Source of the DNA: Chrysomallon squamiferum
Lineage: Eukaryota > Animalia > Mollusca
Length of the DNA: 64,000 nt
Assembly: GCA_012295275.1 (NCBI GenBank)
Contig: CM022670.1
Span: 24,986,001 to 25,050,000, forward strand
Reading direction: 5' to 3'
The position numbers and the translations under genes were made by a program. The stretch's first letter is position 1, and every line of letters starts with the position of its first letter. Under the pieces are notes generated by a model. That model did not search any database. It had not been told where the DNA came from and saw nothing but the letters and a program-made list of their open reading frames with translations. This document shows, piece after piece, positions 2,341 through 64,000 of this stretch.

Positions 2341-3483
2341 TAAAAGAAAAGAGGAGGAAAAGGAGGAAAATGACAGCAGCAACACCCACAGCAACCCCGT
2401 AACAACAGAGGCACTTAAGTAAATATATATCCATTACAAACCATCCTTAAATACATACCAGACAATCCAAGAGATCCCCGTCGACTACAGCATAAGAATT
2501 GCTCATTTGCGTCTTCGCATCATTAGTGCGGATAAATAACTACATTTTGAATGCGCCTGGCTGTCAAAATAAACACCTAGTTGACGAGAAATTCTGACCA
2601 GAGGGTGAGCATTAATTAATTCATAGGTTTCAGTATGCAGAATGAATCGACAGTGGGGAAAAAGAAGACACAGAGATGAACAGAATGCTCTGTAATGTTA
2701 ATGGTTCCCATCGGCTTGTGGATGTTTGCCGATGGTTTGTCGCGAGATGGGATAATCCTGTAGAGGGGTCAAAGAGTGCCTTGCCTTTCAGAAAGACGTC
2801 TTACTGCGTCGATTTCCAGTCTGTGTCATTGATACGTACAACATGGTTATTACTTCTCACTCCGAGTCGGGTCAAGTGTGGTCCATCAATCTCTGTTCCA
2901 ATTACAGGCGAATCTCGGTCTTCTCTTAATTATTACGCGTCATAGAAAAAAATGCAGACATGTATGTGCTGTGTGTTGTGGCAACATTAGGAATATAAGC
3001 AATAACAACAGCAGCAGCAGCTGCAGCAGCAACAACAACAAAACAACAGTAATAATAATAAAAAGAAGAAGAAGAAGAAGAAGAAGAAGAAGAAGAAAGA
3101 AAGAAAGAAGTAGTAGGAGTAGTAGAACAACAAAAAAGCAACAAAATATTTGTTTTATTTTATTTTATATTATTTATTTATTTATTAGGCTTTAAGTTCA
3201 ATTTTTTGTTTTGAATTCTTGTGTTGCTCTTACTTGCACTTTTCTTTTCTGGTTAGACGTTTTCTTTAGATTAAAGAGTTAATGAAACATTCTCATTAAT
3301 TGTATATGCACACGTTTCTGTCTGACTTCGAAAAACAGTTCTGAAGGTAACACATACACAGACACATAACAAACACAGACACAAACATAAAAACACACAC
3401 TCAAATCCAGACATAAACATAGACTCAGATACAATAATAATTTAGAAACAAGGAAGTGATTGTTATGAATTTCATTAATGATT

Positions 3484-3489: not shown

Positions 3490-3962
3490 TATGTGTACAA
3501 ATCATTCCAAAATAAACAAATTTAACAAAGTAGGTCATTCTAAGTCATTAAGTTATAATTTTAAACTATTTTTCTCTATTTTATTATAATAAAAGAAGTA
3601 ATGGCGAAATGTGATATGAAATTAGAATTTAATAGAAAATAAACTATTTGTAAACGATGAAAGTAATAAAAATGTAAACTATATATAGGTTTTATTAAAA
3701 CAGGTTCTCAGTGTGTGTTTTTTTTACTTATTTATTTTCCTGTACCGGTTAGAAAAATAAATGTCGACGATTACCTAAAGAAGTATTTATTCATCCATTT
3801 ATTTCACATAGCAAATGTTATTTTTATTTATTTATTGATTTTATCAGTTTTCAACTTATCGTCCACATACGGCATACAATCCTTGAATGATTTACTCTCA
3901 CTGTGAACAGATCGTCCATACAAGCAGAATCCGGGCAACAACCAAAGAACAACCAAGGCTTG

Positions 3963-23495
<19,533 letters not shown>

Positions 23496-39334: not shown

Positions 39335-39493
39335 TTAAACATTTTTGAGGAACAGTGCAGCACCACACAGAAGCCAGATGTTCTGGTTTCCACCACACGG
39401 CATGTTGAGACGGGCAATGATGTGGTCTCGAGCACTGCTGTAGTAGATGGGCAGAGAAATAACCTCATCCATTCCATACGGTTCTGGTGCATC
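39335..39493 (-). CDS. DYNC2H1: DYNC2H1 last coding exon
   Basis: atccag|GAT GCA; [17 protein letters not shown]...[21 protein letters not shown]; TAA 39335-39337. Confidence 0.95.
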   Translation of the reverse strand, partial: DAPEPYGMDEVISLPIYYSSARDHIIARLNMPCGGNQNIWLLCGAALFLKNV

Positions 39494-42400
39494 CTGGATT
39501 TAAAAATAAGAATAATAATAATAATAATAAAACAAGAAATTTATGATAAATTAAATTAACATGTAATTACAAATATGTTAAAAAACAATAAATAACAAAA
39601 AAAAAAAAAAGAAGCAAATGTAAACTAATAATTTTAAGGAAATATTTATTTGAAAGAAACTCAAAATTATTTTTAACAGTGATAGTCTTCTTCTTTCTCT
39701 TTTTTTAACATATAACTTAACATTATGCGACAAAATGAATATAAATAAATAAATAAACAAATAAATTAAGTGGTATTTGTGATAAAAAATCACTATAAAA
39801 CCCCTTTCTGTAGTACCAAAAACATAATAATGGCAGTCACATGTCTTATCACTTATAAAATTTAAATCACCTTTGGTATCCAGGCAACACTGCAGGGTGG
39901 GATGGCTGATATGCTGGGTGAGTCACGCTGGTTTTCTGACAGTCTTGTTCCATCAAAGCTGCAGCCCTCCAGCTGAAGTCCACCGATTCTAATTGTGGTT
40001 TGAGCTCCCTTTATAGAAGAACCTCTCCACGTGCAGGCAAACTTGAGACTATCCATCGAACACTGGATCTCTCTGAAAAATAGCCACAATATTGTCATTT
40101 TTTTATTTTCCTTTCTGTTTTGATGCTAATACTCAGTTTCCCAATTGCAGTTGTATATGCAACAGATGTCTTGCTGGTTAGAAGCACTAAATAATGGAGA
40201 TGTTCATTCCAACGTAATGTTTTATACAGATGAATTAGCCATTTATAATTAGACATTCTATTAAAAAACAACTTTTAAGTTTAATCCACACATTATTTCA
40301 TTTTTTAAACTGATGTCTATTATAGTGATTAAAAGCAAAATTATTATGTAAAAAAATATTTCCAAAAAATAATAAAAAAAATTACCTTGCAGTCTGCTGT
40401 CTGAATGCATTAAGGAAGGTGTCTGGGTGGAAGAGTTCTGACAGGTCAAGTGTTTGTGTGAGCAGACTGCCTGTCTCAGCTTTCTCCACCCAGCTCTGGA
40501 TAGCAATAGCTCGTGTGACTAGACCCCGCAAATAGTGAAGTGGATCTTCTGGTCCATCCCAGCGATCTTGCCAGAGTATTGGTGTCTGAAAGCATAAATT
40601 ATATAAATATACTTTTTAATAAAAGATACATTCCTCAACTTCAGCTGAAATAAATTTCAGAACTAGAAGATACTTTAACCAGTAAAAAAAAAAAAATAAA
40701 ATAAAAAAAAAAAAAATTCCCAACTCTTAAAAACCGAAAAAAAAACAACAGCAACCCAACAACATCAGTTAGAATAATATTATTTTTTTTTTTATAATGT
40801 AGTATTTTCTCTATTTTGATAATGTTAGAAATCTAATTATAACAAAATAAATTTTTATTAATCATAAATATATAACACAGTAAGAATACTCTGAGGGATA
40901 TTTAACATGTACTAGTGTGTGTCCAGTATGTTTTTTTACCTCTTGATTAAGAAGAGCTGCTGCCAGGTTTTGGACTTCGTTGGTGAGAAGCTGAGTTCCT
41001 CTAATGACTTTACTTAGAGCTGCAAGCGAGGCATGGACACTCTGGACAAGCTTCACAGCATTGAAACGCTCAAGCAGAATGAATGAAACAATTGGAGATG
41101 ATTTGCTTCCCTTCTCAGTAGGTGGCGACACTTTCATCTGAATCAACTGTGAGCCCTGGAGTAAATAACAAAACAAAAAAATAAAATTTATAGTTTAACA
41201 TTAAATCTGAGATAAAGATAATAAACTCAGAAAATACTCAAAAATAAGTTTTTTTTCTTCAAAAATGATATGCAAAAAATGAATACAGTCTATGAAAACT
41301 GAAATGAAACATACTTTTATCCCTATATAATAATAATAATGTACACTTGATATATATATTCAGATAGCCTTACTTCCAAAATTTATTTTCTATTGTTACT
41401 TAATTAGATTTTAAATAACAGTTAAAACACCACTACTGTATTCTTCATCTATCTTATACTACTATCCAGTAATAAAAATAACAAGCATCCATTATATAAA
41501 CAAACAATAAGGAACAAGACAATAAATTGATTTTAATTATATATATGAATTTCTGTATATGAAATAAACACAGTACCTGGTTCAGTTTTTTCCACAGGTT
41601 AAGAACAGGTCCAAGCTCATTAGCCCAGACCTCCTTGTCAAACTTGCTGGCCTTGAAATCAGATCTCTGTAGAATCCTGAGCTGGGAGATAACCTGTGAA
41701 CTGATGATTCTCTGTGTTGATCTCTCTATGTTCTCAGGCAAGCCAAAAAATGACGGCTTATCAAATTCTGGTAGAGACTCAATTGCATCAATGAAATCCT
41801 GTAAAATTATGAAATAGTCTATATATATATTAACATTTTGTTTTTATATAATAAATAAAAAAAATAGTTATGTAGCATCTATTCTATTTAATTTTTATCA
41901 AGAACATATTTTTAAAATGAGTCAGAAAATATGCTGCAAGGTTAGACATAGTAAATACAAGACATTACCCTGTAGTTGGTGCTTGTAGGCAGGTGGATGG
42001 GGCCAAGTCTCTTGTTTCTGCCCTGTGAAGACAACACACTGGCATCAAAGAACTGTTTCAGATACGACACCAAGACTCTGACATCAAATGGGTTGTCCAC
42101 CCGTCCACCATAAATAGCATTTTCAAAAAGTCCATGAATAAAGAGCCACTGAACATCCTGACCTACAAAAACAACACAAAATATGTTGTAAAAGAATAAA
42201 CATATCAGTTTTGAAAAATAGTATTTATGTAAGATGACTGATGGTAGATAAGAGAGGCAGCTAATGTTTTAAATTGTTAAGCCTGGTATCACAATGGCTA
42301 AGCTATGAGCCCAATGTGGCCAGAGACAGTGCTACTACTATATAACTGGACGTTTCTATAATAAGACAAAACTCCTCTTTTTTTTCCCTTCAACTCTCAT

Positions 42401-45262
42401 TGTTGTGTGCAGACAATACATGTCTGTGGTTGACAGTTTTAGTAATAATAATAAAAAAAAGAAATGAATGATTAATTTCTGAACTGCTTTTCGTAAGTTT
42501 ACATATACAAAGCTGTTTAATGAATGTTTATAAAGTGTTACATTATAAAGTGTTACATTTCAAAAGAACTACAAACCTGTTCCTTGGCACAGTCTGTCAA
42601 TGATATTAGCTCCAGCTCTCAAATCACCAAGAGAGAATTCATAGAACTTTGTCCAACCCTTAATAAAAAATTAAAAAAATAAAACAATAAATATTATCTA
42701 CAGATAAATAGGATATCAGAACAAGTATAAATTTTCTTTTCTTTAAATGTAAATTGAAACATGCATTAATAATAATTCCATTAAAATCTTCATTAGCTGA
42801 TATCTAGATACCTCCATATATTACTAATAATATATGATAATGCTGAGATTACCATAGAAATATCAGTACCCCATCAATTTAAAACCTGAAATTCAATGAA
42901 TACTTTCTTTTATGTTTAAGTGTTTAATGCAGGTAATAACCTTTTCACTTAAGCTCAGTGATATGATATTTAAAATCCTAAATATAATCTTGTCACTACC
43001 ATTTGGAATATATACAGTTATATATTTTTATTTATTTAAGTAATGAAAGTAAATATATATTTGATGTATTGTACCTGTGGAATGTACATTCGACGTTCCT
43101 GTACTACAGCATGGAACCAGGCCAAAGCAAACAAAGCTTGGCTCCTAACAACACTGCCACCACGACTGATGTATTCAGGACTCCATGACTCATAGGTACG
43201 CATCAGGTTTCTCTTCACACCAGGAGGGGCCTAACAATTTTATAAAATATTTAGTAAGATGTAGAGTAATTTTCAACAATGAAAAATCCTTCTAGACATT
43301 AATAAATTAATGCAATTACATAATAATAATAATAATATTAAATTTTAAAAAAATAGATAAAAACAGTAAGAAAATGATAGTAACATTATAAAAAGTTAAT
43401 TTATTATTAACATATTTCATCTTAATGAACAAAAAATAATATTCAGTTCCCAAAGTAAATTTATTTGATGAAATCTAATAAAGTTACAGAAAATTAATAT
43501 AAAGATATTTGAAGTCTTTGATAACTGGTAACTGAAAAACATATGAATTTACTCACTTCATATGTAATTTTCAAACTGGACTGCAGTAAAATGGTTGGAA
43601 ACTTGTGGTGGACTTCTGCTGTCAACCAAAGTCTAAAATCTTCATGTGGTTTCATGTTGTTAATTTCCTACAAAATGTACAGAACAAAAATGAATGAAAT
43701 GACAAACATTTGACCCACCTTAACACATTTTAATATTAATGATAACTAGGAAACGTAAGAATTGCATATAATTAAGATACTCCTTGGAGTATTCTTACTG
43801 ATAGAAGTAAAGGATCATTCATACATATGCTATCATAATGAAGAAAGCACACAAAATATGGCCTTTGAAACAGAGGCTAAACTATTTAAACAAACAGAAC
43901 TGAAAATAGTTAAATTTTAGTTTCATTATGAATAACTGAAATTAACAGATCATAAAATGAATAAAATGTTAAAATAAAACTTCCACAAGCAAATAATTGT
44001 TATTAAAACTGAGAAATGCACCTTCTCAAGCAGTGGGAGCCATGCTGTAACAAGGTGGAGATTCTTCAGACAAAGCCACTCTCCATTCTGTGAACACTCG
44101 TGAAGAAGCTGCATTGCCAGGTCAGCCTGACCTTGACCCATTGCCACCTGAAAGAAAATAACAGAACCACACATAATAGCTTCTAAACATTCATTAAATT
44201 TTGTTCAGTTAAAATAAAATAAATCAACATTATAGTCATAAAAGCATCATGCTACAAGTAATATATTTACTTAAACAAAATAAATATACTGTCATTAAAG
44301 TATTGCTACAAGATGTACATTAAAGCGACATGATGTTTTTCTTTAATGCACAAAATATTTAATGTGAAATATTAAAATCTGAAAGGATTAAATCAAAATA
44401 AAGACAAAACAATAAAACCTAAACCGCTTTTGCATATCAAAGCTGATTATTTTAAATGCATGATTTATAAAATGTTGTTTTTCAAGCATTAAAATCTATA
44501 ACAAGTTTATGAAGTTAAATAAAAAAATAAAAATAAATATACAGAATAAAATGATAATAATGCAAATTGTTTTCATGTCAATGCTAACTGTTTAAAATGG
44601 ATGACAACTGAAATACCTGGTGATATTTTTCCATGCCAATCTCTTCCTGGGCCATTTCCTGAAGTTCTTGAGATGGGTCAGCTCCAGGTGAGATGACAAT
44701 TAGAACAGGCTCAGTGGGCAAAGTTTCTGCATACAGCTTCTTCAGACTCACACTTGGTGGTGACAACTCTTTCAGTGCTGTCAAATGTATACAAAGAAAT
44801 ATTTTATCTCCTAAATCATTATTTCATGTTATGCTTTATCTGATCTTTATTTTACATTAAAAATGATTTAAAAAAATTAAAAATTAAAAATTTAAAAATT
44901 TAAAAAATGTCGACATGAGCCTATAATAATTATTTGAGATTGCAAATTCTTTTTAATATTGTCATAAAATATTTTTCATAAGAACAGTTCTGATATGACT
45001 GTTTATCAGTCAGAATTTATTAAGAATATGACTAAATATATAATTATCTTGATTATTTTCTAAACAAATAATCTCTTTCACAGCATAAGGAGAAACAAAA
45101 TGTTCTTGCTTTATGATATATTTACATTACATTTTAATAAGCAAAGATAATATACAACAACAGCTGAACATTAACATTTCATTATTTTCTGAACAGATAC
45201 TTTTTATTTTATCTGCTTCAAACTATTCTTGCAACTTAGCCTATTACTTTCCATTGTAAGTG

Positions 45263-45300
<38 letters not shown>

Positions 45301-48300
45301 AATATTTATATATGGATAGACAGATACATATGCCAGTACTAATCTACACTAACATTGGTTTTAAAATGTAACTCACACAGTGCTCTGCTGGCAAACTGAC
45401 TCATGGCACTCTGAAGTCTGTCAGGTCTGACAGCCTGGACTATCAGGACTTGTTGAAATGGTGTTGTTTTCTTCTGTATGACGGATGGAAAGTCCTGCTC
45501 ACACTGGCTGCTGCGGGCAAAGTTTGACCACAAATTGGTATCCTCCATGTCCAGTTGTTGGTACAGAGATGGAAAATTTGCCTGTGTAAAAGAAATGATA
45601 ATAATAACAAATGCATCTAAACACAAGTCTGTAATATCTATAATGCTTGAAATTTAACCAAAGTAGAGGATTTAAATTGTAACGTACATGTTATAAAAAT
45701 GGAAGATAACAATGAATGAATTATGTCAGTTAATTTTTACACAATTTTATCATCTTTCTATTTAATTATATTAATTTTTAATTAAAGGTGAAATATTTGT
45801 TAGAAATAGTGATCATTTCTAAGCTAATCAAATTTCTAATGATATGTAAATTAGATGGAAATTGTTTTAAAAATATGCACAAATGGGTTCAAAATGCAAC
45901 TGACAGAATTGGTTTGTGTCAAAATTTACCTTCAACATGCTCACTGCCTGGGCTCGCTCTTGGTCAACCCAGGGTGGACAGTGATGATCTCCCTTGATGT
46001 CTGCTACCAGTATACCACTGAATGCATCCCATTCCTTTACAAAACAAAATTATAAAAACAATGAACAAGATTACCTCAGTCTTTTTCTCAATATGTCAAT
46101 ATTTCCACTCAAAATGTTTTGCTATCTTGTAAATGATCAGGTATGAAGAAAAAGAAATATTTATTTGTCAGAGTGTACTGAGCAGCATGTTAAAACAACT
46201 TAATACTTTAAAGAGTTCACATTTACAAGGTAAAAACAGATAAAATGACAGAAAAAAAAAAAAAAAACAAAAGGAAAACTTGTATTTAAATGATTTTAAC
46301 AGTTATAATACAGGTCATATTTTTCACTGGTTCAATCAGTTTGAGATTTTATTTTTTAATTTCTGTTATTCCACAGATCTTATTTTCATTCTTATCTGAA
46401 ACTTACATTTTCTTTGAACATTTCTGGCTTTGTTCCGTACACCATGTGCATGGCAAACATGAGACGATCTGCCTTGAACAGTGAGCGACACACATACTCA
46501 AACACCAAACACTGCAGTTTGTTTATCAGTGTTCTAATCCTTGTTTCTGTACCGCTGCCATCCTGCCACATACATTAAAAAAATTAAATGTTTTACCATT
46601 TAAGAAAAAATAAAACAAAATCCATTAATTAATTTAACAAATCTTCAAAGTTAAAAGCTAATATTTTCCAAAACTAGCCAGGACCTCACATCTGATTTAC
46701 CAAAGGTCATTGCATGGGTCTTCTTTGTTACTGGAAAACTGCACATAAAAGATTACTTACTGCTAACAGTTTCGTAAGGTGTAGATTCAGTGAGTTCCTT
46801 CTAACATCATAAATATACAAAAATTGTGTGTTTTTTAAATCCACCAAGACTTAACAATAATGTGTTGTGTAAGTAATAGTCTACACTTACATGTTTGGTG
46901 AGAAGTGATCTCTGGAAGAGTCTGAGGAAGGCAGCCAGACTGAAGCGGTACATGTTGTTGATTTTAGCCAAGTCACATATAACAAAATACAAACAGCTTC
47001 CACTCTCAGCTAAAGGTAAGTAAGTATTTCTCTCCTGGAAATTAAAACAAAAAGGTGTATTTAAGAAAAAGCTAAATTAAATATTTTATTCAAAAACTTA
47101 CTGGTACTGGAATTAATAATCTTGGTTACAACATAACAAATTAAAATATCTGATGTCCAGCTAAACTGACTAGAGCTTTAAACAAAAATGAAAATGACAG
47201 ATTGTATTTAAGCAATGACTTCAGATTGCTTCACAAAACTACAATCTGACACCCATGTATTAAATCCAGGTATCTTTCCAGTTTTAAATGAAATGATCAT
47301 CTGTCTTGTAACTTTGTCCTATTTTCCATTAAACTAGGCTTTTATTAGGTTATATGAATGATACTGTATTGATCATTTACTTTGCCAGTATTTTATGATG
47401 TGAACAAACCTGGTCAAGAGACGCCTGCAGACGAACAGACTCAGTTAGTGAGTCACTGATTGTGATACTACTGGCCTTTGTCTTGTTGAGGGAATCCAAC
47501 AACTCCTTGTTCTCCAGAATACTTCCTTTGGCATTTGCTAGCTCCTGTAAAAAATACACAGTGGGTGATTTTTTAAAAAAAATGTTTTAAATCTCTGCCT
47601 GAACCCTTCTTTCAGTTCAAAACTTTAAATATTTTTTTTTTTGTTGTTTAAATATGGTTTTGGAGTTTTTGCAACAAAATGTTTTAAAACATGCTGTAAT
47701 TAACATTTCAAGTGGTTTTAGAAATCAGAGAAAAAGAAAAGCAGATTTAATAACTCTTGCAAAGTTAAATGAAACAATGATCCCATTTATTACTTTAGTT
47801 ACATCAACAAATTAATCTGCTTCTTTAGATAATTAATTTTGATGAAACTAAAATATTTCAGGCAAGAAAGTTATTTACACAGTCTGATGACACTGCTTAC
47901 CTCTAGCAATGATTCTTCTAGTTTGGCCAGCTGAATCTTCAGATCTTCCTCCTGTCTCAGCAAATCTGTTTTTCTCACTTCCAGCTCTGGCTTCTCATTT
48001 TGGATGGTGTTTGCAAGTAACTGTAAAAATAAATATAAACTTTCTATAAACCTGTCATAATATCTTCTTAGATAAAAATTAAAAAAGAAAGACCCTCCCC
48101 TCAAAATACCACAGTATATTGTTATTTTATTTAAATATATCCGAAGTTTCTGTTTTTACTATCTCTGTGATGGAAAGCAGTGTTTTCTCTTCAGTTTCAA
48201 TGTTTTACCATCCTTTTACAAGTATGAAGACCTTGGTAAATACTCTTTGAATTTACCAATGTTGTAATAATTCATAACTGTCACTATTTATTATTAATTA

Positions 48301-50682
48301 TGCTAAAAATGTCTGATTAAAACAAGTAATAGTCTACAAATACTTAATGATAATATTTACCTGTCCTGTCAGGCCAGCTCTGGTTGTGGTAAAATTAATT
48401 TCAGTTATGACAGAAGCAGCGTCTGGTGGGATTTCTGGGTTTGGGTTTCTGGTGGTAAGAAACATTCGAAATTCTTCATTGTAATCTATTGTTTTCTCTC
48501 CAATCTGCACAACGTATCGAGGTCCTGTATGAAAAAGAGAGAATTTAATTAATATTTGCATCAAATACTGATATTGTCAAATAGATTTTTATTCTAAACT
48601 GCAAATATTTCTTGGCAGTGGATTTACCCAAATATTTTGAAATATGTTTTCATTATTTATTTAGAATTGAAAATATATTGAATAAAATTGGATTGGAAAA
48701 TAAATGATCATTTTTCTATGGCATTTGAATCATTGTAAATACATATATATATTACAGCACCTAATTCCAGTCACTGAAAAAAATCACCCAAACTGTCCTT
48801 CTTCCGCTGTCCTCTCTGGATCTTTATAAATAGCTGACACAGATTTGTTTGTGAAGGAGTGAATGTCTACCACAACAAAGAAATGGTGAACTATTTTTAA
48901 ACCATTATTAGCCAAACCAAAATGGGGAAATCCACAAACAGGCAGAGAACTCTCATCATTGGTGGTATTGTCTTGTCAGGCCAGAAAATATCTTATTAAT
49001 TTAGCATATTTATTAACATACCTTGTGCAGTGAGATCTCCTCTCAACAGTGGATAGAGAATGGGTTCTATTCCATCCAACTCCTGAATGATCAAAGTCTT
49101 CCCAAATCTAACAGCCAGTTCAAGAGCAGTGGTGAAATTTGCATCCTGCCGTTTAAAGATTTAAGTAGCTTTTTATTCAGAAAAACATGTTCTCAAAAAA
49201 TATAAAATAGAAATACACAACCAAAAGAAACAGAAACAAAAAACAAACAAAAAACCCTGTAATATTTAGAATAAAGATGAAAAAAAAGAGAAAGGATCAA
49301 ATTACCAGTATCATATATTACCTAGAGTATAAATATTAGTCTAAATTATTAAAGATATGCTTCAAGCAAGTTTTCTTATGCTGGCTGAAATAAAATAAAG
49401 AATTTTATCTGCTGATTTCACATACTAGTGTAAATAAGATATTTACTTGCTGATTTCATACACAGGTGTAAATAAGATATTTACCTGCTGGTTAACAACT
49501 TCAAGGCGACTTTCTTTTAAATGAGTCTTTAGCCACTCAGTTGCTCTTGATGAAGGATCCACTAAAAATGGTCTGAGTGAACTCTACACAGATAAAAAAC
49601 AACAATAAATACAACCATAAACATTTACTACTGATTAGATTAAAAACAATTAAATATGTAAATTCTTTTTTATAAAATTGGTACAAAGTAAGTGGAAGCA
49701 TACACACATCACACACAAACACATATAAAAAATTTGCAGTCTAAAGTTACTGTTAAAAACCTTTTACAAACATTGGATATAGGTTACATATTATTATAAA
49801 AACATATTAAATAAAATAATTCTTCCAGACAAATGACTTGAATCAGATTATATGAATTATTAAATGTTATTACACAAAGAAGTGCTAGGATCAGAACAAA
49901 ACATGAAATACAAATGAGCTACCAATTGAAAAAAAAAAAAAAACTTTTAATACATTTAGAAAAAGATTCTTGAAAAAAAGAATTTAGTGAAAAAGGAAAA
50001 AACATTATAGTTACTGTTTCTATTTTCTATAAATTTTACTGACACAGTGAGACAACACATACCAAAGGAGAATAAATTAATAAAACAGAAACATTTTGTT
50101 GCTATTTTGATGTGTTCTGAATATTAAAGAAATTTATCAGGTTTAAAAATTCAGAACTCTTTTATGAAATGACAGTTTAGTGAGAGAACATCCACAAAAC
50201 AGGCAGAAATTTAAATGCATTTTTTATGAAGAAAAAACAGTGATATTTTTATGTTATATAATATTATGAACATTTTGAAAACTTGATTTATTTTTTCTTC
50301 TAAGCATCCACTGAAAACCAGGTGAAACAGTAGTAAAGTGTTAATACATTAATTAAAACTATTGCAGAAAGCTTTCTGAACACATTTGAAAATGTCTATA
50401 TTTAAAGAAAATGATTTCCTATGTTACTAAAAGATTATTCTTAACATGACTGAATTTTGGTTTAATATAATAATAAAGTGTCTCTTCCATTTGGAATAAA
50501 ACATACCAGTGTTATGTAGAAGATTGTTATTAATGTTATTAAGATATTTTTAAGCTGGTTAAAAAAAATCAATGAATTCTCCACTTTATAAAAAGCATAT
50601 TCACTAATACTTTAGGTAGATCTGAGGTATCAAAATGAAAGGTGTGCCAGAAAAAAAATAAAATAATAAAAAACAAAAATAA

Positions 50683-50725
<43 letters not shown>

Positions 50726-53700
50726 GACTAATTTTTTGAGTGACAGAAAAAAAGCTCAGCAGTTTTGTCAAACTCTATTTATACCATAAAAGAGCCTGGT
50801 CATCCTGATTATAAAAACATAATTTTTTGTTTTTAAAAAACATCCAAAATGCACACAACAACCAAGTGTAGGATTTCAAAAGCACAAGACTGAAGCAGTG
50901 TGGAAAACTTAAAACGATACAAAAATAATTTAACCAAATTATCTCAAATACCCATCATTATCTTCAGTTAATTTTTAACACAAAATCGTTTTAATGAATA
51001 TTCAATTATTATTATTATTATTGTTTTTAAAACACTGAATTTTTTAAATAATTTATTTATTAATGGATTTATTTTTTTTTTTCAAATCACTCATTCCCTA
51101 TACTAATGATGTTTAATGGTAACAATTCCAAGTGGATGAAAAATATTTAAAAAACAATCTCATAGAACCTGAAGCCTTTCATTTTTTGACAGTAAAACTG
51201 AAGTGATATCTATGACTTTAATTTTCCATACTACTTCATAACCTGCTGAACAAAAATCAGTGCATGTGATTTAAAAACATGTGCTGCAGATTCCAGTATG
51301 CATGAAATAAAAAAATTCATGTTAGGGTGCAACCTGAAAACAACATTTTGTTCAGAGCAACATAATTTACTGTTACCAAGCAAAAACCTTATTTTCTTTA
51401 TCCAAGTAATAAATCTTACCCCAACTCGTATGTTATTGATCTAGGATGCAAATGTATTAAAAATAAAAAAATATAAACAATAAAGATAATAATGTATACA
51501 GAAAAAACACACAAACACAGATATATAATTAAAACTAATACATAATTATGACAAAATTAATACAGAAAATAATAATATTACTTTACATATCATTACAGTT
51601 TAAAATGAATTAGTTCCATTAGGAAAAGTCTGGTTAGTTTTATTTATTCATGCAACTAATGGTAATGAAGGTCAGTAATACTAAATAACAAACTATTTCA
51701 GTTATCTAATTATATAGTCATGTTGATCTCTCGAATGCAAATCCAGCCTGTTGTATGTAAAGAATGACAGAATGTGTTTCATCACGAATCTGCCAATGCA
51801 CGAATCACAGAAACAATATGTACATGCATTTCAATATACAAAACAATGATTTTAGAAATGACATGCAAAGATATTTCAATATATAAAACATAAAATAGTT
51901 TTACTGTTATTACAACATCACCTAGATAAGCATTATAACTACTCCCTTTACAGCATATAACAAATTTGATAATTAATTAAAACTGAAATTCACGAATGTT
52001 CTGATGTTTCTAAGACCATCACAAGAAAACAAATACTATATCAGAATATTTTTTCTTTCATGTCAGATTTCACTTACAAATGAAATCTCTTAGAAAACAA
52101 ATATTGTATTAAAAAAAAAAGAGAAAAATATCTATTCCCATCAAGTTGAAAATTAAATCAAATAAAGAGATTATTATTTATTAATATGAGTGCCACTCAC
52201 ATACATATATATGTATATTCTTCAACCAGTGATTAAGTCAAATATGCATAAAGTGCCATGTTACCAATTCTGGATAAATAACAATATATATAGTTGTTAA
52301 AAAAAACCTTATATGATATTAATCTGAAAACTAGATGACTGATGACTAATTTTCACAGAAAAAGAAAACTGTATAAACATTACATTTGACCTAAAAATAA
52401 AGTCACAACAAAACAATGACATTCATACACTGTTAAAACATGAGGCCTATGAATGGCCAGGACATATTAAAAGGACAATGTTAAACAGTGAGAACATTCT
52501 CCTAGTTTACCTTTGAGTAAGGATATCCCTGTAAATCAAACAATTTACCATAAGAATACATTCCTTAATAACATCAGAACATGTTATTTACAATCTGCGA
52601 CCTTGAAAACTGCCGAAAGACTGGTCAGATATTAAAACAACAAATATCCCAGATCAGAATCTGAAAATTTTACATGAAATTTTTCAATTTGTTCTTAGTT
52701 ATGAAATTTTAAATACATCTTCCTGACCATGATTCAAATTAACTCATTTTTAAAAAGTAAATAAGATAAAACAAAATAAGTAAAAAGAAACTTAGATAAT
52801 CTAAGCATGTCAGCATACCTGTAGAATAACCAGAGCATTTTCCATAGACAGATCATCAGAAGGCAGCCCCTCGGCTTTCCACATGAGCTGTTCACTCTCT
52901 GTGCTGAGAAAACGCCGCAGGTCAAATCCTTGGACTCCAATCAAATCCATCCAGTTGTTTAGTGATTTCTTACGAATATCTTCTGGTGCACTGGACAAGT
53001 AGGTCACAAATGCTGCAGCTAGAAGTGCTTTTTTTGGTAGTTCTCCTAATTCTGTTGTTAATTCTCCAACCTGAATGTAATTAAGTGACAGACCATTATT
53101 ATATAAATCCAAATTGGAAAATTAAAATGAAATGAAAAAAGAAAAGAAAAAAATGAAGGAAATTAAATAACACAAAAACACAAAGATATTACAAATTAAT
53201 AAATAATTTAAAAATATCTGATGTACTGTTTTGTCAATTAATTTTATATGAATAACATTTGTAAATAAATATATTTTTTTTATTTTTTTCTCACCAATAA
53301 TTTTATTGAGTTAAAGGAAAAGAATCAAGCAGAGTCACATAGCCAAAACAACAAGATAGTAAAAATAATTAATTTTAATTTATTTTTAAAAATCACAAAG
53401 TATTCCATAGTAAGTAATAAAGAATTAAAATATTTATTATATTAACAAGCAATATATTCAGGTTAAAAAAAGAAAAAGCCAAGATAAGGTCACACAGTTT
53501 TTCTTCTTTTGTAGCTGTCCAGCAAATTTTATTTTAAAATACAAATGGCCTTCATTTCATTATGAAGTGGTTAGATCTCATGTAATAACAAAGTATTTTA
53601 TGTCTTTAACTAGTTGTTAAGTTTTGTTCATACCTGTGTGTTCCATCGTTGATATTCACCATCAAGTTTAGAAACAAGAAGTTCTGCTGCTTCTATAGTC

Positions 53701-56700
53701 TCTTTCTCCTTGTCCAGTTTAATCTTCAAAACTGCTGCTTCTTTCGTCAGTGTTTCAAATCGGGTACGTAAATCAGCAACTTTGGTGTCTACTTCACTCA
53801 AAGCTCGGCTCAGCTTGGCCATTCTTGATTCAGCCTTCTCAAGATTTCTTTAAAAAAAAAATATATATATATATAAAAAATTAAATAGTTCCATGCACAG
53901 TTAAAAAAAAAGAAATGACAGAATAATAGAAATAAATAATAACTACAGTATTATATTGCAAGTGTATTTACCATGATGACAAAAATTGTTCCAGTTATTG
54001 CTTTCAGTTAACTTTAGAAAATAACTTACTTTCTCAGCTCTGCTTGTTCCCTTTCCAAAGGTTCTATTTTCTCCAGAACATAAGAATACTTCACATTGGC
54101 ATGTACCCAAGTGGCCAAAGGTTCAGCTATAACAGATGCTCGTCTAGCATTCTTGAAAAATATAAAAACTAGTTAAAAATAATATTAACATATCTTTTAT
54201 GACTTTTTTATTACACTACTTCTCCCCAAACAAAAACATTTTTAAATTTTGTTTTATTAAACTATTTACCATTGATAAATTCTTTCAAAAACAGAAAAAT
54301 GTTGACATAAAGTACCTTTGGCTCAAATGAAGCTTTGTTCTTTTTCAGCAGTTCTTCCACACTTTTTCTGATTTCTGGACTAATTTTTCTTGCATCGAAT
54401 GTCTGAATCTCATCTTTGACACCTCTTTTTGCCAGGAAACTGTAAAATAAAATTTATTTTTTGAAATTATCTTTTAAAAGCATTATTATAAAAGATAAAA
54501 TCTTCCAAAAGATACAAATAATTTAAACATTTTTTGTATTATGTTTATGTTTATATTAAAAAATAGCCCTAAATATATATAATTATAATTTTATTTTTTT
54601 TTTATTTATAAATAACATATTTAATTATATAAGCCAGCAATCTCTAGATATAAAATCAAATTAAACGTTGCATCCGATCATAAAATTATGAAGTTAAAAC
54701 ATTTCCACAAATGGAAATTTGATAATAACAGATTAAAGGAACAGCAAACAAACCTTTTCATGCTGACCCAGGATGTATCAAATATGCCCATGAGTCTGAG
54801 GACACCCTCGAGAATGTCTCTGATGACGTCAGGAGGAGCTCGGAGGGCTCGTATTTCAGACAGAGATTCTGTTTTGATGCTGCCCACAGCCCGGCGAGCC
54901 TCCTGTACAAGTGGCTCTATGTCAGCCATCTCCAAGTCAATGGCTTTCTTCCTCTTCTCCAACTTTGCATTCTCCTCGGCTGCCTGCTGCTTCAGCACTT
55001 CCATCTCATTCCTCTGATCTGTGGCATCCTGTAAATATATATCAACAACAGATTGAAATCTGACGATAAAATTTGATTGGCCTTCATTCCTTTAACTATA
55101 TATTTAATTACATTAAACAACATTCAGAAGCAAAACTTTTTTTTTTCTTGTGTTTTGTTATTTGTTACCTATTTATTAAAAATAAATGAAAATAAATGAA
55201 AATAAAACAAACAAATAAAGAAATATTTTCTGCTACAGTGCAATTGTTTTCTCTCAATAATATCATTGTTACACCAAAAAGAGAACAAATTATTTTATCA
55301 TCTAATTTAAAAGGCTTATGGATAAAACCAAATGTGTTTTACTGTTTAAGTCAAGATAACTCACCTGCATGCTGACTGTGATTTCTCTAAGGGCACTGTC
55401 AGCCTCTGCTTGTTTATCAGCTAACAGCTGGCTCTGTTCTGCAGCCTTACTTTTCAGTTCATCGACCAGGTGTTTTGCATCATTCAGTTTTGACACTCCA
55501 GCCTGAAATAGAGTCAAACAAAATAAGTATTACTCAAATGAAATCACTGTTAAAATGGTTTCCTAAAAATTTAATTTTGCCAGTTGTATACATGCCAACG
55601 CAAAGTATTCTTATGTGCTAGAGAAATTATAACCTCTGGAATGCGAACATGCAGAATTCAAAAGTTAAGTTAGTTATTTATTCATATTTAAAATGTTATT
55701 TTGTAGATTTTATAATTGATATCAAGAATAAACAATATCTATTTTCATGAATAAATATTTATTAAGTTAAATAAATTGGTTCATGAGGAATAAATCCCTG
55801 ATTTAAGAAAAGGGAGGGATTTTCACAAAAGCTGTGGATTTGATACCAAAATAAACTTTAACTGACCAACCCAAAAAATGTATATATATGTATGTATGTG
55901 TATATGTTATATATCTAAATAAATGATATAAGCACCAGCACTAAAACATCAGAATATATTTTGTGAAATATATTAAAAAATCTTTGTCAACATTAGTGTA
56001 TTGTTGTCCAAACTTTGCAGTTATAATTAAAAGCTTAACTACTTTAACTTGCATTGCTGACACCACAAAGAACTTATATAAATATAAAAGGAGTGGGTTT
56101 GCATGATGCATGATCACACAAATATTATTAACCTTCATCTTAATCAATTTGTTTGCTTCACTGACCTGTAAATGATTCTGTCTCTTCTCAATGCTCTCCT
56201 TTTTCAAGTTGTACAGCTGTAGGTAGGTGTGTAGAAACACCATGTATCGCCGGGGAGTTGCATGAACCGGAGAACAAGTTTCATGAACTTGAAGAAAACA
56301 TTTCAGTAGTTCGTCACCACCAGACAGTTTTTTCTTGTGTTTTCTCTCACCTATTGATCCACCCTCAACTCTAGGTGCTCTTGTCAGTAGCATGTGTGGC
56401 ACCTTTGTAAGGAAAATATTTCTGGTAACTAATGCATCAAAACCACAACATTTGAAAGATAAAAAAATTAATTTCAAATGCAAGAGATAAGTTATTCAGT
56501 TAAAATAAAAAAATGAACACATGTCTTCCAATTCAACAAGTTCAAAAAAGAACAAAAAACAGAAAGCCAAATTATAATAACAATAATAAACAATGGAAAA
56601 GCAAACATCACTATTTTCTTCTGATACATCCAGTAAACTTTTTTAAAATGTAAATGTACATCAATACATATCTGTCTTTTGAAGTTGTCATTTGAACAAT

Positions 56701-56905
56701 ATCAATGGTACTGTGTTTACTAATATGATACTTGAGAAGAAAATAACTTACTCGAACCATGCTTTCACGACTCCAGCTATCCAACCACTGGAAAGCACAC
56801 AGTTTGTAGAAAGCTGGATTGCTCTCACAGTTGAGTGTGAAACTTGAATTGGTTGAATCCATTATCAACACAATGTGAAGATTACACTGAATTCCTAAAA
56901 AAAAA

Positions 56906-56941
<36 letters not shown>

Positions 56942-59900
56942 TAAAATAAAATAAACTATGATCAAAACAAATTATATTAGCTCATTAAGTAAATTAAGTT
57001 ATAAATATTACCACCATAATTCAAAATACAAATACCATCAGTTAAATAATCTAAAAAACAAAATTATGATTACTCTACATATCAGTACTAATTTATTAGT
57101 GTTAATTACTTGAAGCAAAATAGTTGGCAAGGGTGCCTCTGAACCCAGCTTCTGACATAGAATCTCTAAGAGGAGTCAAGAGGGGTTCTATTTCCTCTGG
57201 TGAGTAGAGCCCAGGAACCTCTCCAGCAGACAGCAGACTGTTGATTAACTCAAGGAACTGTGGTTCAACCATCTGATGATCCTCCAACAGCAAAACAACC
57301 TGATCACCTTCCACACCTGCCAGCTGCATTACCTGTAACACAGCAGTAACAACTTGTTACAATACATGTTTTAATACTGTAATATAAACATGAATGATAT
57401 CAAGAAACCTGTAGATAAAATTTTCATTTAAAGTAACTTTGCACATCAAGGTAATCGAAATATATGCACTTTTGATCAAAGAATATCTGAAAACTTTATT
57501 TCAAACATTAATGAGATCAAGAAATATGCATAAAAAGTAAATCTGCATATTTTCATATCAAATGTTTAAACTTTTGTAAGCAATTTTCTTTTTTTTTCAT
57601 TAAACATTAACAAATCTCTCATCTTCATATAAATATTCTGTTATTTTCATAAGTCAATTAAAATATTGTAAGAATCATACAATTATTATGAAAAAAAAAC
57701 CTGAAGTTAAATAACAAGGCCTTCTTTTTATCATTATTATTTTTCCCTTACAATCAGTGTTTAATATACTGTGATTTTTCAAATCATTCAAGTGATTCCC
57801 TAAAATGAACTAACAAACCCTTGCTTTAAGATATTAACTTTTTTTTATATCAATTACATTGTTTAATGTACTGACATTTTTCAAATCATTCTTTATTCCT
57901 TGAAGGTTCAACTAACAAGCCCTTGCTTTTAGACATTAACTTTTTATCCTTTTTTTATAACAATCACAAATGCTTAATGTACTGACATTTTTCAGATCAT
58001 TCTTGAACTGCTTCAAGCCATATCCTCGTGACACTTTTGGAGAAAAGGTTTGCATCTGGTGCATGTGTGCCACTATTGTAGCCGCTGTGCGCCGTCCGAC
58101 CCCACTGACGGCCAGCCAGTAACAGCGACCCCCCGGGTCTCGTAAGAACTCTGTCCACTCGGGCCATGTGATCAAGCACCTCTTTGAAAATCAGGATATC
58201 TACATCTCGGTTCTCTCGACCTGAAAAATACACAGACTTCAATTTAACCGCAGTTTCTCTTAAATCACACTGGATTCATCAAACCAATCAGCCTGGCAAT
58301 GTGAGACTTATTTATTTTTAACAATGACCTGAAATTATGTATTTAGATAACCATAAATAAACTGTCGAAAAGCAACTTGTAATAGCAATCCCTACTAATT
58401 CAGTTTTAATTTTCATATGTATATTATTTAAAAATACATGTTTTAAAAAAAAAAAAGAAATCATGTTTATTGACATTAGTTATATGGTTTAGTGAACACA
58501 ACTTCAGCAAATAAATCCATAGTGGATTAATACAATTTTAAACAATACTTTGTCATTATTATCAATTTCTGCTGCTTTATGTTCATTTAATTTTACCATA
58601 AACTGGAATTTGTACTTAAAGCATGTACTGGAATAACTTAATAAGAAATACTTACAGTAGATTTTGATTCCTCTCTCAATGACTGCCTTCAGGTCCTCAG
58701 GGACAAGTTTTCCTAGAGGTTTTCCAAAGAGAGGCAGAGGAGCGCCTGCTGCTGATGATGGTGCTCCTGTTTCTGAACGAGCACCCCACGTCACGAAGTA
58801 CGTGTCTTTAAAAATACAGATAGTTAACAGAGTCACTAACAAGAATTCAGTACTCGTACAGTATCTCTAAATAATAACAGTAATAATTTAAATTAAAAAG
58901 GAAGTATGATTCTAATAAGAATTAAAAAATAATTTAAATTAATAAAAATAAAAGAATAACAACAATTTAAATATTTAATTCTTTAAATAAAAAACAATTA
59001 GTACAAAACTTGTTTGTAATAAAAACAGATAGAAAGCTTTGTTAAGTCAAAAAAATATGTTAAAAATATAAAATAAAGATTATATGTTAGTTTCACACTG
59101 CATTACTTTATCAACTCTCGAATGTCTAAGTATATATATAAAAAAAATAACTCACAGTCAATTTTATCGAAGATGTTGCATGACCAGTCAGCTCGAATGA
59201 CAGACATGAGGAGGTTATCAAACTTGTTTTGTCCATCAGTACCAACAATTCGGTCACGGAAAAGACGTCTTGCTTCATAAGCCCAGATTTCCAGAAGATG
59301 GTCGCTGGTGTTTTCATTCTGCCCTGCATTCAAGTCATATCTCAACAGACCCATAACCCACTTTGTCAGGTCTCGTGGCGTGAACAGGTAGTGACTGTAG
59401 TCGTCAATGGTGAATCGCTGTCTCAACTATAAAATAACACAAACTTTCAGTTTCTGTATCCAGAACATTTAACGAAAAGGTTTTATCTTACATTTCAAGT
59501 TATTTCAGAAAATCCACTGTAAATATATTAAAATGTTTGTGAAAAATCAGACTACATATGAATTACGATGAAATGGTGATTTATTTATTATCTAAGTACA
59601 CATGTGGAATCACACATTCACTCAGAACTTATTATGAATTCCAAAATCTGCTTTCTGATATAACTATCTGTATAGTTTGTCATCAAAATAATAATAATAA
59701 TAATAATAATAATATAAACCCAACAAATTTAAGAATTATGTTCACCTGCTCATAGAAATCAACCATTGAGCTGGCCAGTGCATGCACTTTTGCCAGATTT
59801 CCCCACACTGGGTGATGTGAAAGCTGTCGATGCAGAATTGGCTTCAGATAGGCACCATAAATTGTCTGAAGTTGGTCTTGGTCAGGGTATCTACAACAAT

Positions 59901-61025
59901 TATAAAATACTATTTTACAATACACACAGCAATTCACAATAATTTTATAAACAAAATATTTATAAACAAAGATTTTTGAACATATTATTTTGTGTACAAT
60001 ACTGACATGCATTTAAATACATTTAAAAATTAGGGTATAAGTCAATATTATCTAATTTCAACAATACTAGCACATATTTAAATGTATTTATAAATCTGCA
60101 TATCAGCTAATATTCTTAATGTTCTTTATTGTATCAGCTTATAATTGTAACTGCATTGATTCACAACAGTATACTAAGTGAAATATGATCTACTTTCAAC
60201 AATGATTTCAGATTTATTACAATAAATTCTAATGTTTTTAGCACTGGTTCTTATTTAGACATAAAACATATTCAAAAAAGACTTTATTATAAATGGTCAG
60301 TATATATTAAGCAAACTGATCAAGAAAAAAAAAAAAAAAAAGCAAATCCACACACCTGTAAATTTATTAGGACAGATACAAAATTTCTGCAACTGACATA
60401 GTAATTACTAAATTATATAAGATTTATATTTGCTAATGTTTCAAAAGAGAATAGGATAACAGAAATATATATATTATCATCACTAACACTACAACAGATT
60501 ACTAACATTTGTTAAATTTACACAAGAGAATGTTGGAAGAGGACTAGGAAAACAGAAATATATTTATTATCATCACTAACACTACTTATATTTGTTAAAT
60601 TTACACAAGAGAATGTTGGAAGAGGACTAGGAAAACAGAAATATATTTATTATCATCACTAACACTACTTATATTTGTTAAATTTACACAAGAGAATGTT
60701 GGAAGAGGACTAGGAAAAGAGAAATATTTACTAATGTCACTAACCCTACAACACAGATTCTGACCACTGATGTGAACCGTGTGGTCAGTTCATGTCTCCC
60801 TAGTGTTGTACCACTGTTCATACTGGCAACAATCTGAACATTCTCCAGTCCTACCCACTCCAGATTTGTGTCATAAAATCCTTTGTAGGTCACCACCTGA
60901 AAATAATAAAAATATCCTTTAAAATAATGTTTTAAAAGAGTCTTACAGTTGATTTAATGTCTAGTTTTTTTTAAATCCAACTCAACTTTGCAAAAAAGAC
61001 AAATTGATTTATAATTCACATTTAT

Positions 61026-61092
<67 letters not shown>

Positions 61093-63872: not shown

Positions 63873-64000
63873 CTGAAATAAATTATACAGGGATGTCAGT
63901 TAGATTAAAAATAATAATAATATTAATAAAATAAAATAAATAAAAAATAAAAATAAATATATGAATAAAGATTAAAAAAATATAAACAAAAGATATAAAA

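What the first reader, a model, noticed from the sequence alone, without database searches (positions are those of the whole stretch)
51420..51440. Hidden 21-nt frame-preserving microexon in DYNC2H1 AAA5 with a UGC (SRRM3/4-type) enhancer
Seen: intron 49584-52818 is 3235 nt, about three times the next-longest DYNC2H1 intron in the window. It contains tttgcatcctag|ATCAATAACATACGAGTTGGG|gtaaga, a 21-nt phase-0 stop-free exon that would insert INNIRVG between ENALVILQ and [14 protein letters not shown] sits 8-10 nt upstream of the exon. Established: UGC just upstream of the 3' splice site is the hallmark of neural microexons driven by the eMIC domain (SRRM3/4 in vertebrates, Srrm234 in invertebrates). 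From memory, human DYNC2H1 has a 7-aa alternative exon at this same junction (4307 vs 4314 aa isoforms). Inference: this could be an ancient bilaterian neural/photoreceptor switch that tunes the IFT dynein motor, conserved in position and length but not in sequence.
Basis: partly seen in the sequence, partly recalled or inferred. Interest (0 to 1): 0.85.

Follow-up and report, generated by a model that had tools for sequence, protein, structure and literature searches.

The report
Bilaterian-wide microexon in ciliary dynein-2
A 21-base optional exon sits in this snail's gene for the motor that carries cargo back down cilia, at the same spot and length as the human exon whose mutation causes retinal degeneration; related seven-residue inserts occur from worms and insects to starfish and fish, so it is likely an ancient exon that is likely switched on in nerve or sensory cells generally, not only in light-sensing cells.

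Summary
Confirmed and extended. The minus-strand block 51440-51420 (INNIRVG) lies in the longest DYNC2H1 intron of the window (3235 nt; next 1054). The closest named protein, from the vent snail Gigantopelta aegis, has two RefSeq isoforms differing only by INNIPVG at this junction (6 of 7 identical). A 7-aa insert there was seen in 25 of 50 invertebrate bilaterian genera held and in vertebrates, but in 0 of 17 cnidarian and sponge sequences. The junction is the human one (after Q3273). The acceptor has eMIC-type anatomy: weakest of the 38 scored, UGC at -10, 92-nt AG-free zone. Not shown: inclusion in this species (contigs of 4 of 4 RNA runs skip it), tissue, regulator, or effect on the motor. 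'Photoreceptor' is doubtful here: G. aegis is reported to lack opsins. All 15 scorable insect sequences carry the insert, and flies use IFT only in sensory cilia. A second, mollusc-type 21-nt exon lies at 62945-62925. This scan noted the same exon before in another genome (e1-7513308). My searches found its age nowhere in print, but key supplements were unseen.

The parts
51420..51440 (-). 21-nt phase-0 cassette microexon of DYNC2H1, encoding INNIRVG in AAA5
   Evidence: 6 of 7 identical to the only difference between G. aegis isoforms X1 and X2; rank 1 of 1968 7-mers; two RNA-library contigs read the same letters across the block
51441..51460 (-). weak 3' splice site: AG at 51442-51441, TGC (UGC) at 51450-51448, branch-point-like TTAAT at 51460-51456
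   Evidence: score -2.1, below all 37 constitutive acceptors (-1.2 to 14.4, leave-one-out); TGC at -15..-3 in 2 of 37 constitutive acceptors; branch point inferred from consensus only
51443..51534 (-). 92-nt AG-exclusion zone with a T-rich tract set back from the AG
   Evidence: longer than 34 of 37 constitutive acceptors; T fraction 0.65 at -60..-15, above 35 of 37
51414..51419 (-). 5' splice site GTAAGA of ordinary strength
   Evidence: score 8.8; constitutive range 2.0-13.5
49584..52818 (-). host intron, 3235 nt, removed whole in the skipping isoform
   Evidence: joint 49583-52819 in 4 of 4 RNA runs
52819..53070 (-). upstream constitutive exon ending ...ENALVILQ (human Q3273)
   Evidence: PDB 6rla chain 3397-3479, E 2.7e-31; numbering offset 206
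49485..49583 (-). downstream constitutive exon starting [10 protein letters not shown]
   Evidence: Pfam AAA_9, below the curated cut-off alone
62925..62945 (-). second 21-nt phase-0 microexon candidate (VLAYING) in the second-longest intron; no UGC near its acceptor
   Evidence: rank 1 of 674 7-mers against 7-aa inserts of 5 other molluscs at the same junction; no RNA laid on it
39335..64000 (-). 3' half of the DYNC2H1 (dynein-2 heavy chain) gene, 38 exons in the window

Best explanation
The block is a 21-nt alternative exon of dynein-2 heavy chain at the same junction as the human retina microexon, likely inherited from the bilaterian ancestor and likely included in neurons or ciliated sensory cells through the eMIC domain of Srrm234. 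Shown here: position, length, splice-site anatomy, the skipped transcript, and a near-identical insert that distinguishes two annotated isoforms in the closest named relative. Inferred: most cells skip it because the acceptor is weak; where eMIC is made it would act near the UGC and help early 3' splice-site recognition (mechanism from PMC8797185 and bioRxiv 2024.09.17.613571). Predicted: the seven residues add about one turn to the first helix of AAA5L and lengthen the surface loop before its first strand. They would adjust motor mechanics or partner contacts in sensory cilia without breaking the fold; that last step is untested in any species that I could find.
For: (1) G. aegis X1 (4305 aa) and X2 (4298 aa) differ only by INNIPVG. 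(2) Pairs differing only by this insert also occur in Liolophura, two Asterias species, Ptychodera, Solea, Carassius and Camelus; both forms are held for 8 of 50 invertebrate genera. (3) 7-aa insert in 25 of 50 genera after dropping one likely read-through; 5-7 aa in 29 of 50. (4) No insert in 17 cnidarian and sponge sequences, although coral-like genomic fragments run out at the same junction, so the intron seems older than the exon. (5) Column-permutation p = 0.002 for Spiralia against Ambulacraria, amphioxus, insects and vertebrates; amphioxus against vertebrates 0.004. (6) At 35 of the other 36 junctions no insert recurs across distant groups. (7) Human exon HsaEX0021304: 21 nt, nearest residues 3270-3273, PSI 83 in retina, 24 neural, 1.6 elsewhere, SRRM4 response +11 to +81; the mouse exon is listed as eMIC-dependent. 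(8) Acceptor anatomy matches the published eMIC profile. (9) AlphaFold2 model of the Biomphalaria form: helix 278-292 takes in the first three inserted residues, then loop to strand 300-304; pLDDT about 70 there.
Against: No inclusion junction in contigs of the 4 RNA runs, all from one study with unknown tissues; contigs drop rare forms, so this is weak. No tissue data for any invertebrate. Srrm234 could not be looked for: no genome is held. Similarity to vertebrate inserts is modest: about 2% of random dynein 7-mers do as well. A shared helix-and-loop constraint could produce a similar pattern, which the permutation control does not exclude. Invertebrate evidence is from protein models; I did not see their exon structure or read support. 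UGC is neither necessary nor sufficient, and 9 of the 71 chance blocks also have one. No insert in Octopus (0 of 4) or Nymphon (0 of 6). Many invertebrate models give the insert as their only or main form (Lottia, Owenia, Tubulanus; 9 of 11 Branchiostoma), which could mean broad inclusion.
Confidence: 0.7

Rival explanations
1. The exon is real and ancient, but in invertebrates it is not neuron-restricted or not eMIC-driven; it follows ciliated epithelia, testis or a developmental stage under another splicing factor.
For: No invertebrate tissue data here. Many invertebrate models carry the insert as the main form. eMIC programmes are reported as almost fully rewired between flies and mammals (PMC8797185).
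Against: The dominant transcript in 4 of 4 runs skips it. Weak acceptor, UGC and long AG-free zone are kept. The human and mouse orthologues respond to SRRM3/4.
Confidence: 0.17
2. The intron is a hotspot: vertebrates and invertebrates gained 21-nt exons there independently, and structure forced similar length and pattern.
For: Recurrent gains in the same gene or intron are described. Vertebrate inserts end in R, Q, S or W, not G, and carry K at position 5 where most molluscs have P. The second junction (reference position 2244) shows unlike 7-aa inserts in chiton against snails and clams.
Against: Same length in nearly all cases. Amphioxus LNNMKAG bridges Lingula INNIAAG and shark INKLKIR. 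I-N and a hydrophobic fourth residue are shared from fish to snails. Presence in every deuterostome subgroup sampled leaves little gap for a loss and regain.
Confidence: 0.09
3. The exon is a decaying remnant in this species: no longer included, and the P-to-R difference from Gigantopelta reflects relaxed selection in a blind animal.
For: No inclusion seen. Position 5 is R where the six other gastropods scored have P.
Against: Six of seven residues, both splice sites and the UGC are intact, while the exons overall are about 86% identical to Gigantopelta. K, R, Q, E, A and S all occur at position 5 elsewhere.
Confidence: 0.04

Closest known systems
Human DYNC2H1 retina-predominant microexon (exon 64; HsaEX0021304; p.Ser3279* in Vig et al. 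2020, PMC7708302) and mouse MmuEX0015987
   Same: Same gene, same junction (after Q3273), 21 nt, phase 0, 7 aa in AAA5, skipped in the bulk transcript.
   Different: Peptide INNIRVG against IIGLKSW in mouse and cats. It is found in a snail whose closest named relative is reported opsin-less. Tissue and regulator are unmeasured here.
Gigantopelta aegis RefSeq isoform X1 (XP_041357038.1) against X2 (XP_041357041.1)
   Same: The isoforms differ only by INNIPVG at this junction. So an automatic annotation already holds the orthologous exon.
   Different: One residue (P against R). The record names it only as an isoform; no link to the human exon is drawn in the name.
eMIC/SRRM3/4 (Srrm234)-dependent neural microexons; the bilaterian-ancestral cases in APBB1/2/3 and MADD (bioRxiv 10.64898/2026.09.05.749416)
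   Same: Short, frame-keeping, weak 3' site, UGC, long AG-free zone; bilaterian range.
   Different: That preprint infers only two ancestral neural exons and its main text does not mention DYNC2H1. Its rule needs tissue-specific exons in insects and in centipede or octopus; this exon looks constant in insects and absent in octopus, so the rule would likely miss it.

Membership tests
Orthologue of the vertebrate DYNC2H1 AAA5 microexon | Host gene is DYNC2H1 | tested here: met
Orthologue of the vertebrate DYNC2H1 AAA5 microexon | Same junction and phase | tested here: met
   ILQ ends at chain 3479 of 6rla; the GRRT threonine falls at chain 2869, read as T2663 of PMC7708302, so the offset is 206 and Q is 3273; the supplement gives residues 3270-3273
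Orthologue of the vertebrate DYNC2H1 AAA5 microexon | 21 nt, 7 aa, stop-free, AG/GT bounded | tested here: met
Orthologue of the vertebrate DYNC2H1 AAA5 microexon | Sequence continuity with vertebrate inserts | tested here: inconclusive
   strong to amphioxus and ambulacrarians (rank 1 of 1968); modest to vertebrates (rank 8; about 2% of random dynein 7-mers match as well)
Alternative cassette exon | Skipping transcript exists | tested here: met
   4 of 4 runs
Alternative cassette exon | Inclusion transcript exists in this species | tested here: inconclusive
   no inclusion joint in contigs; contigs drop rare forms; annotated in the closest named relative
eMIC/SRRM3/4-dependent neural microexon | Weak 3' splice site | tested here: met
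   lowest of 38 under the gene's own matrix
eMIC/SRRM3/4-dependent neural microexon | UGC close to the AG, downstream of the branch point | tested here: met
   TGC at -10..-8, TTAAT at -20; branch point by consensus only
eMIC/SRRM3/4-dependent neural microexon | Long AG-exclusion zone, pyrimidine tract set back | tested here: met
   92 nt; pyrimidine fraction 0.70 at -60..-15. The tract is T-rich; I did not score the UC-rich motif described
eMIC/SRRM3/4-dependent neural microexon | Neural-enriched inclusion | not testable with these tools
   only contigs of unlabelled tissue were offered
eMIC/SRRM3/4-dependent neural microexon | Inclusion depends on eMIC-bearing Srrm234 | not testable with these tools
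   needs an experiment; no genome held to look for the gene
Retina/photoreceptor-enriched microexon (RetMIC) | Highest inclusion in retina; downstream UAG (Musashi) enrichment | tested here: inconclusive
   2 TAG in 300 nt downstream; closest named relative reported without opsins, a congener without eyes; the window's own species was not examined

The most novel reading that the evidence does not exclude
This exon marks a sensory-neuron form of dynein-2 that already existed in the last common bilaterian ancestor. It stayed optional in animals that also use the motor in non-neural cilia, became permanent in insects where IFT serves only sensory neurons, survives in opsin-less vent snails, and was only later concentrated in the vertebrate retina. 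It would join APBB and MADD as one of very few bilaterian-ancestral neural microexons, and the first tied to cilia.
Probability: 0.45. Interest if true: 0.82.

Novelty: new member of a known kind. Interest (0 to 1): 0.66.

Why it matters
The human exon causes non-syndromic retinal degeneration when it carries a stop codon, and its discoverers left its function open (PMC7708302). If it is as old as Bilateria, it is not a retinal invention but an old feature of the retrograde ciliary motor. The comparison gives a conserved pattern to mutate (I-N-x-hydrophobic-P/K-x-G). It also gives natural test cases: flies that seem always to carry it, octopus that seems to lack it, and opsin-less snails that keep it. 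Deleting seven codons from fly btv would test its role in sensory cilia directly. Deeply conserved microexons are rare: a 2026 survey of 20 bilaterians accepted two.

Tried and rejected
RNA: only Logan contigs were offered. Two layings found no inclusion joint. Run X5 gave no cover of the block, only low-complexity pieces among those shown. One X2 contig starts at 51441, one base outside the exon; a branch from the spliced form should fall at 51442, so I do not count it. Intronic contigs may be nascent RNA or DNA. An 18-nt block at 52528-52511 has strong splice sites (4 of 300 shuffles as good), but no protein insert resembles it, so it was not accepted. TGCATG (Rbfox-type) occurs 3 times in the intron against 5 in 14.9 kb of other introns: too few to count. 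Rows set aside as likely annotation artefacts: Ciona savignyi VIPPFFF, Tegillarca 41 aa, Prochilodus 9 aa, Cricetulus VTSKI; the tunicate '7-aa' rows at position 2244 are alignment shifts (net +1 for Ciona). The search was built to favour insert-bearing proteins, so its counts are not frequencies. In the unbiased list (120 listed of 424), 15 had 7 aa, one each 5, 6 and 41 aa, and 102 none. Among 146 new unnamed 50%-identity representatives, 75 had no insert, 36 had 1-11 aa and 35 could not be scored: this loop varies by a few residues in distant lineages. A review (PMC10987577) says the exon weakens microtubule binding, citing Niekamp 2019. In that paper's main text I found no occurrence of 'isoform', and the passages seen concern yeast stalk mutants, so I did not use the claim. 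The last exon found no PDB match, so numbering was fixed with an AAA4 exon. Torres-Mendez 2019 is not held. The supplement of PMC7708302 could not be read. A look-up of earlier notes by the second exon's DNA gave one unrelated phage note.

Full report
Observation. The window holds the 3' half of a DYNC2H1 gene on the minus strand. Aligning to the closest named protein placed 37 introns; the one at 52818-49584 is 3235 nt and the next longest 1054 nt. Inside it the sequence reads tttgcatcctag|ATCAATAACATACGAGTTGGG|gtaaga at 51440-51420, which encodes INNIRVG in phase 0, with TGC at -10..-8.

Is it more than chance? By splice signals alone, not clearly. The intron has 71 stop-free, frame-keeping AG..GT blocks of 3-51 nt, five of 21 nt, and this block ranks 6th by summed score. 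Its anatomy is unusual, though. The acceptor scores below all 37 constitutive acceptors, the AG-free zone is 92 nt (longer than 34 of 37), TGC occurs at that place in 2 of 37 constitutive acceptors, and the donor is ordinary. A block with these features arose in 1 of 300 shuffles, with thresholds taken from the block itself. This matches the profile given for eMIC-dependent exons in PMC8797185 (passages) and bioRxiv 2024.09.17.613571 (passages); the latter also says that UGC is not strictly needed.

Organism. Among 24 named proteins tested, Gigantopelta aegis is closest: 86% identity over tblastn matches, against 61-76% for the rest. The window is therefore likely from a related deep-sea vent snail; I did not identify it further.

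The decisive evidence is homology. RefSeq isoforms X1 and X2 of G. aegis differ only by INNIPVG at this junction, six of seven residues identical to the window. Pairs that differ only by this insert also exist for the chiton Liolophura, two Asterias species, Ptychodera, Solea, Carassius and Camelus. Over 50 named invertebrate bilaterian genera for which I held a scorable sequence, 26 show a 7-aa insert (25 after dropping Ciona savignyi, which looks like intron read-through), 29 show 5-7 aa, and 8 have both forms. Examples: Lottia VNNLPVG, Haliotis INDLPVG, Mytilus INSIEAG, Owenia LNDVAAG, Lingula INNIAAG, Acanthaster INNLPVA, Glandiceps VNDLQVG, Branchiostoma LNNMKAG, the acoel Convolutriloba LAVIELG, shark INKLKIR, sole INALKLR, mouse IIGLKSW. 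One of the three searches was built to favour inserts; in the unbiased list 15 of 120 had 7 aa. As a control, the other 36 junctions were scored on 242 full-length proteins: only one (position 2244, below) shows an insert recurring across distant groups.

INNIRVG ranks 1 of 1968 intron 7-mers against spiralian, ambulacrarian and amphioxus inserts, and 8th, 20th and 26th against vertebrate, acoel and insect inserts. Column-permutation tests gave p = 0.002 for Spiralia against Ambulacraria, amphioxus, insects and vertebrates. The vertebrate link is weaker, since about 2% of random dynein 7-mers score as well, and the acoel link is marginal (p 0.04-0.20). These controls do not remove a shared structural constraint, and related species are not independent.

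Age. None of 17 cnidarian and sponge sequences has an insert, while four coral-like genomic fragments run out of similarity at exactly this junction, which suggests the intron is older than the exon. Absence from protein models is weak evidence. It agrees with the reported bilaterian origin of the eMIC domain (PMC8797185). No insert was seen in Octopus (0 of 4) or the sea spider Nymphon (0 of 6).

Same junction as human. The upstream exon ends at chain residue 3479 of PDB 6rla. The GRRT threonine of AAA4 falls at chain 2869; read as the T2663 of Vig et al. (PMC7708302, passages), the offset is 206 and the junction follows Q3273. The reported p.Ser3279* is then residue 6 of the insert, where mouse has S. 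Supplement rows of PMC9303857 give residues 3270-3273, a loop, PSI 83 in retina, 24 in neural tissue and 1.6 elsewhere, SRRM4 responses of +11 to +81 and none to MSI1 in HEK293 (files 13-18 not searched). The mouse exon is listed as eMIC-dependent (PMC8797185 supplement row).

RNA of this species. Contigs of four runs from one study all splice the whole intron out, at depths 8-31. No inclusion joint was seen. Contigs drop rare forms and the tissues are unknown, so inclusion here is neither shown nor excluded. Two intronic contigs read the block as in the window, so the arginine is not an assembly error.

Not a photoreceptor exon in this lineage. G. aegis is reported to have no opsin genes (PMC10733189, passages) and G. 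chessoia has no eyes (PMC5333402, passages), yet the G. aegis annotation includes the exon. I did not see the read support behind that model. In insects all 15 scorable sequences carry the insert: 7 aa in Drosophila (6 of 6), Glossina (2 of 2) and Gryllus (2 of 2), 6 aa in two butterflies (5 of 5). The D. melanogaster btv protein in the supplement of PMC10556659 has MLSLPYG there. That paper states that fly IFT acts only in sensory cilia (passages), and btv gave no hit in the fly eMIC table. The simplest reading, which is inference, is that the sensory form became the only form in insects.

Mechanism. Shown: anatomy, skipping, homology. Inferred: default skipping from the weak acceptor and rescue by eMIC in neurons. 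Predicted: in an AlphaFold2 model of the Biomphalaria fragment (51-sequence alignment, mean pLDDT 88.5, about 70 at the insert) the first three inserted residues extend a helix and the rest lengthen the loop before the first AAA5 strand. AAA5L contacts the linker and the AAA4/stalk side of the ring (PMC6600642, passages), so an effect on mechanics is plausible. I found no measurement of it; Vig et al. call it open.

Novelty. The vertebrate exon is known, and automatic annotations already hold the invertebrate inserts. I found no paper that links them: DYNC2H1 + microexon gave 8 papers, 7 listed, with no invertebrate case in titles, abstracts or the passages read of four of them; DYNC2H1 + alternative splicing + amphioxus + exon gave none; searches gave no listing on it. 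A 2026 preprint accepts only APBB and MADD as bilaterian-ancestral neural exons and does not name DYNC2H1 in its main text (passages). Its supplements, VastDB and Torres-Mendez 2019 were not seen and may list this exon. This scan noted the same exon earlier in another genome; that note agrees but is not independent evidence.

A second exon. The second-longest intron (63252-62199) holds cag|21 nt|gtatgc at 62945-62925, encoding VLAYING. Littorina, Babylonia, Crassostrea, Mercenaria and Mya have similar 7-aa inserts at that junction, and the block ranks 1 of 674 against them. It has no UGC near its acceptor and was not seen outside molluscs. So both long introns of this gene half hide a 21-nt exon.

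Verdict. A real microexon, very likely orthologous to the human disease exon, probably bilaterian-ancestral and probably eMIC-driven. It is a new member of a known kind; the interest lies in its age, its survival without opsins and its apparent fixation in insects.

Noticed in passing
window 62925-62945 (-): Second 21-nt microexon candidate (VLAYING) in the 1054-nt intron, matching 7-aa inserts of five other snails and clams; no UGC. Chiton has an unlike optional 7-aa piece at the same junction.
   Followed up: partly
window 52511-52528 (-): 18-nt in-frame block (GYPYSK) with strong splice sites and no UGC in the same long intron; 4 of 300 shuffles gave one as good; no protein insert resembles it.
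   Followed up: partly
window about 58105-58115 (-): A frame shift in the AAA4 nucleotide-binding exon of DYNC2H1; likely an assembly error, since the gene is spliced and otherwise intact, but no RNA was laid on it.
   Followed up: no
window about 3960-17470 (-): A pentameric ligand-gated ion channel gene (Pfam Neur_chan_LBD and Neur_chan_memb); GABA-receptor-like by my recall of the motifs.
   Followed up: no
P0367, P0363, P0434, P0398, P0428 and cluster members: All 15 scorable insect dynein-2 sequences carry a 6-7 aa insert at the junction; whether it is still a separate exon was not seen.
   Followed up: partly
P0131, P0307-P0309 (Octopus): No insert in 4 of 4 octopus sequences, and the flanks are diverged; possibly lost in a lineage with large eyes.
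   Followed up: no
window 51096-52746: RNA-library contigs cover much of the 5' half of the long intron, and one starts one base outside the microexon; nascent RNA, retention or DNA cannot be told apart.
   Followed up: partly
PMC10987577 against PMC6600642: A review credits a motor effect to the DYNC2H1 microexon, but the passages seen of the cited paper concern yeast stalk mutants.
   Followed up: partly
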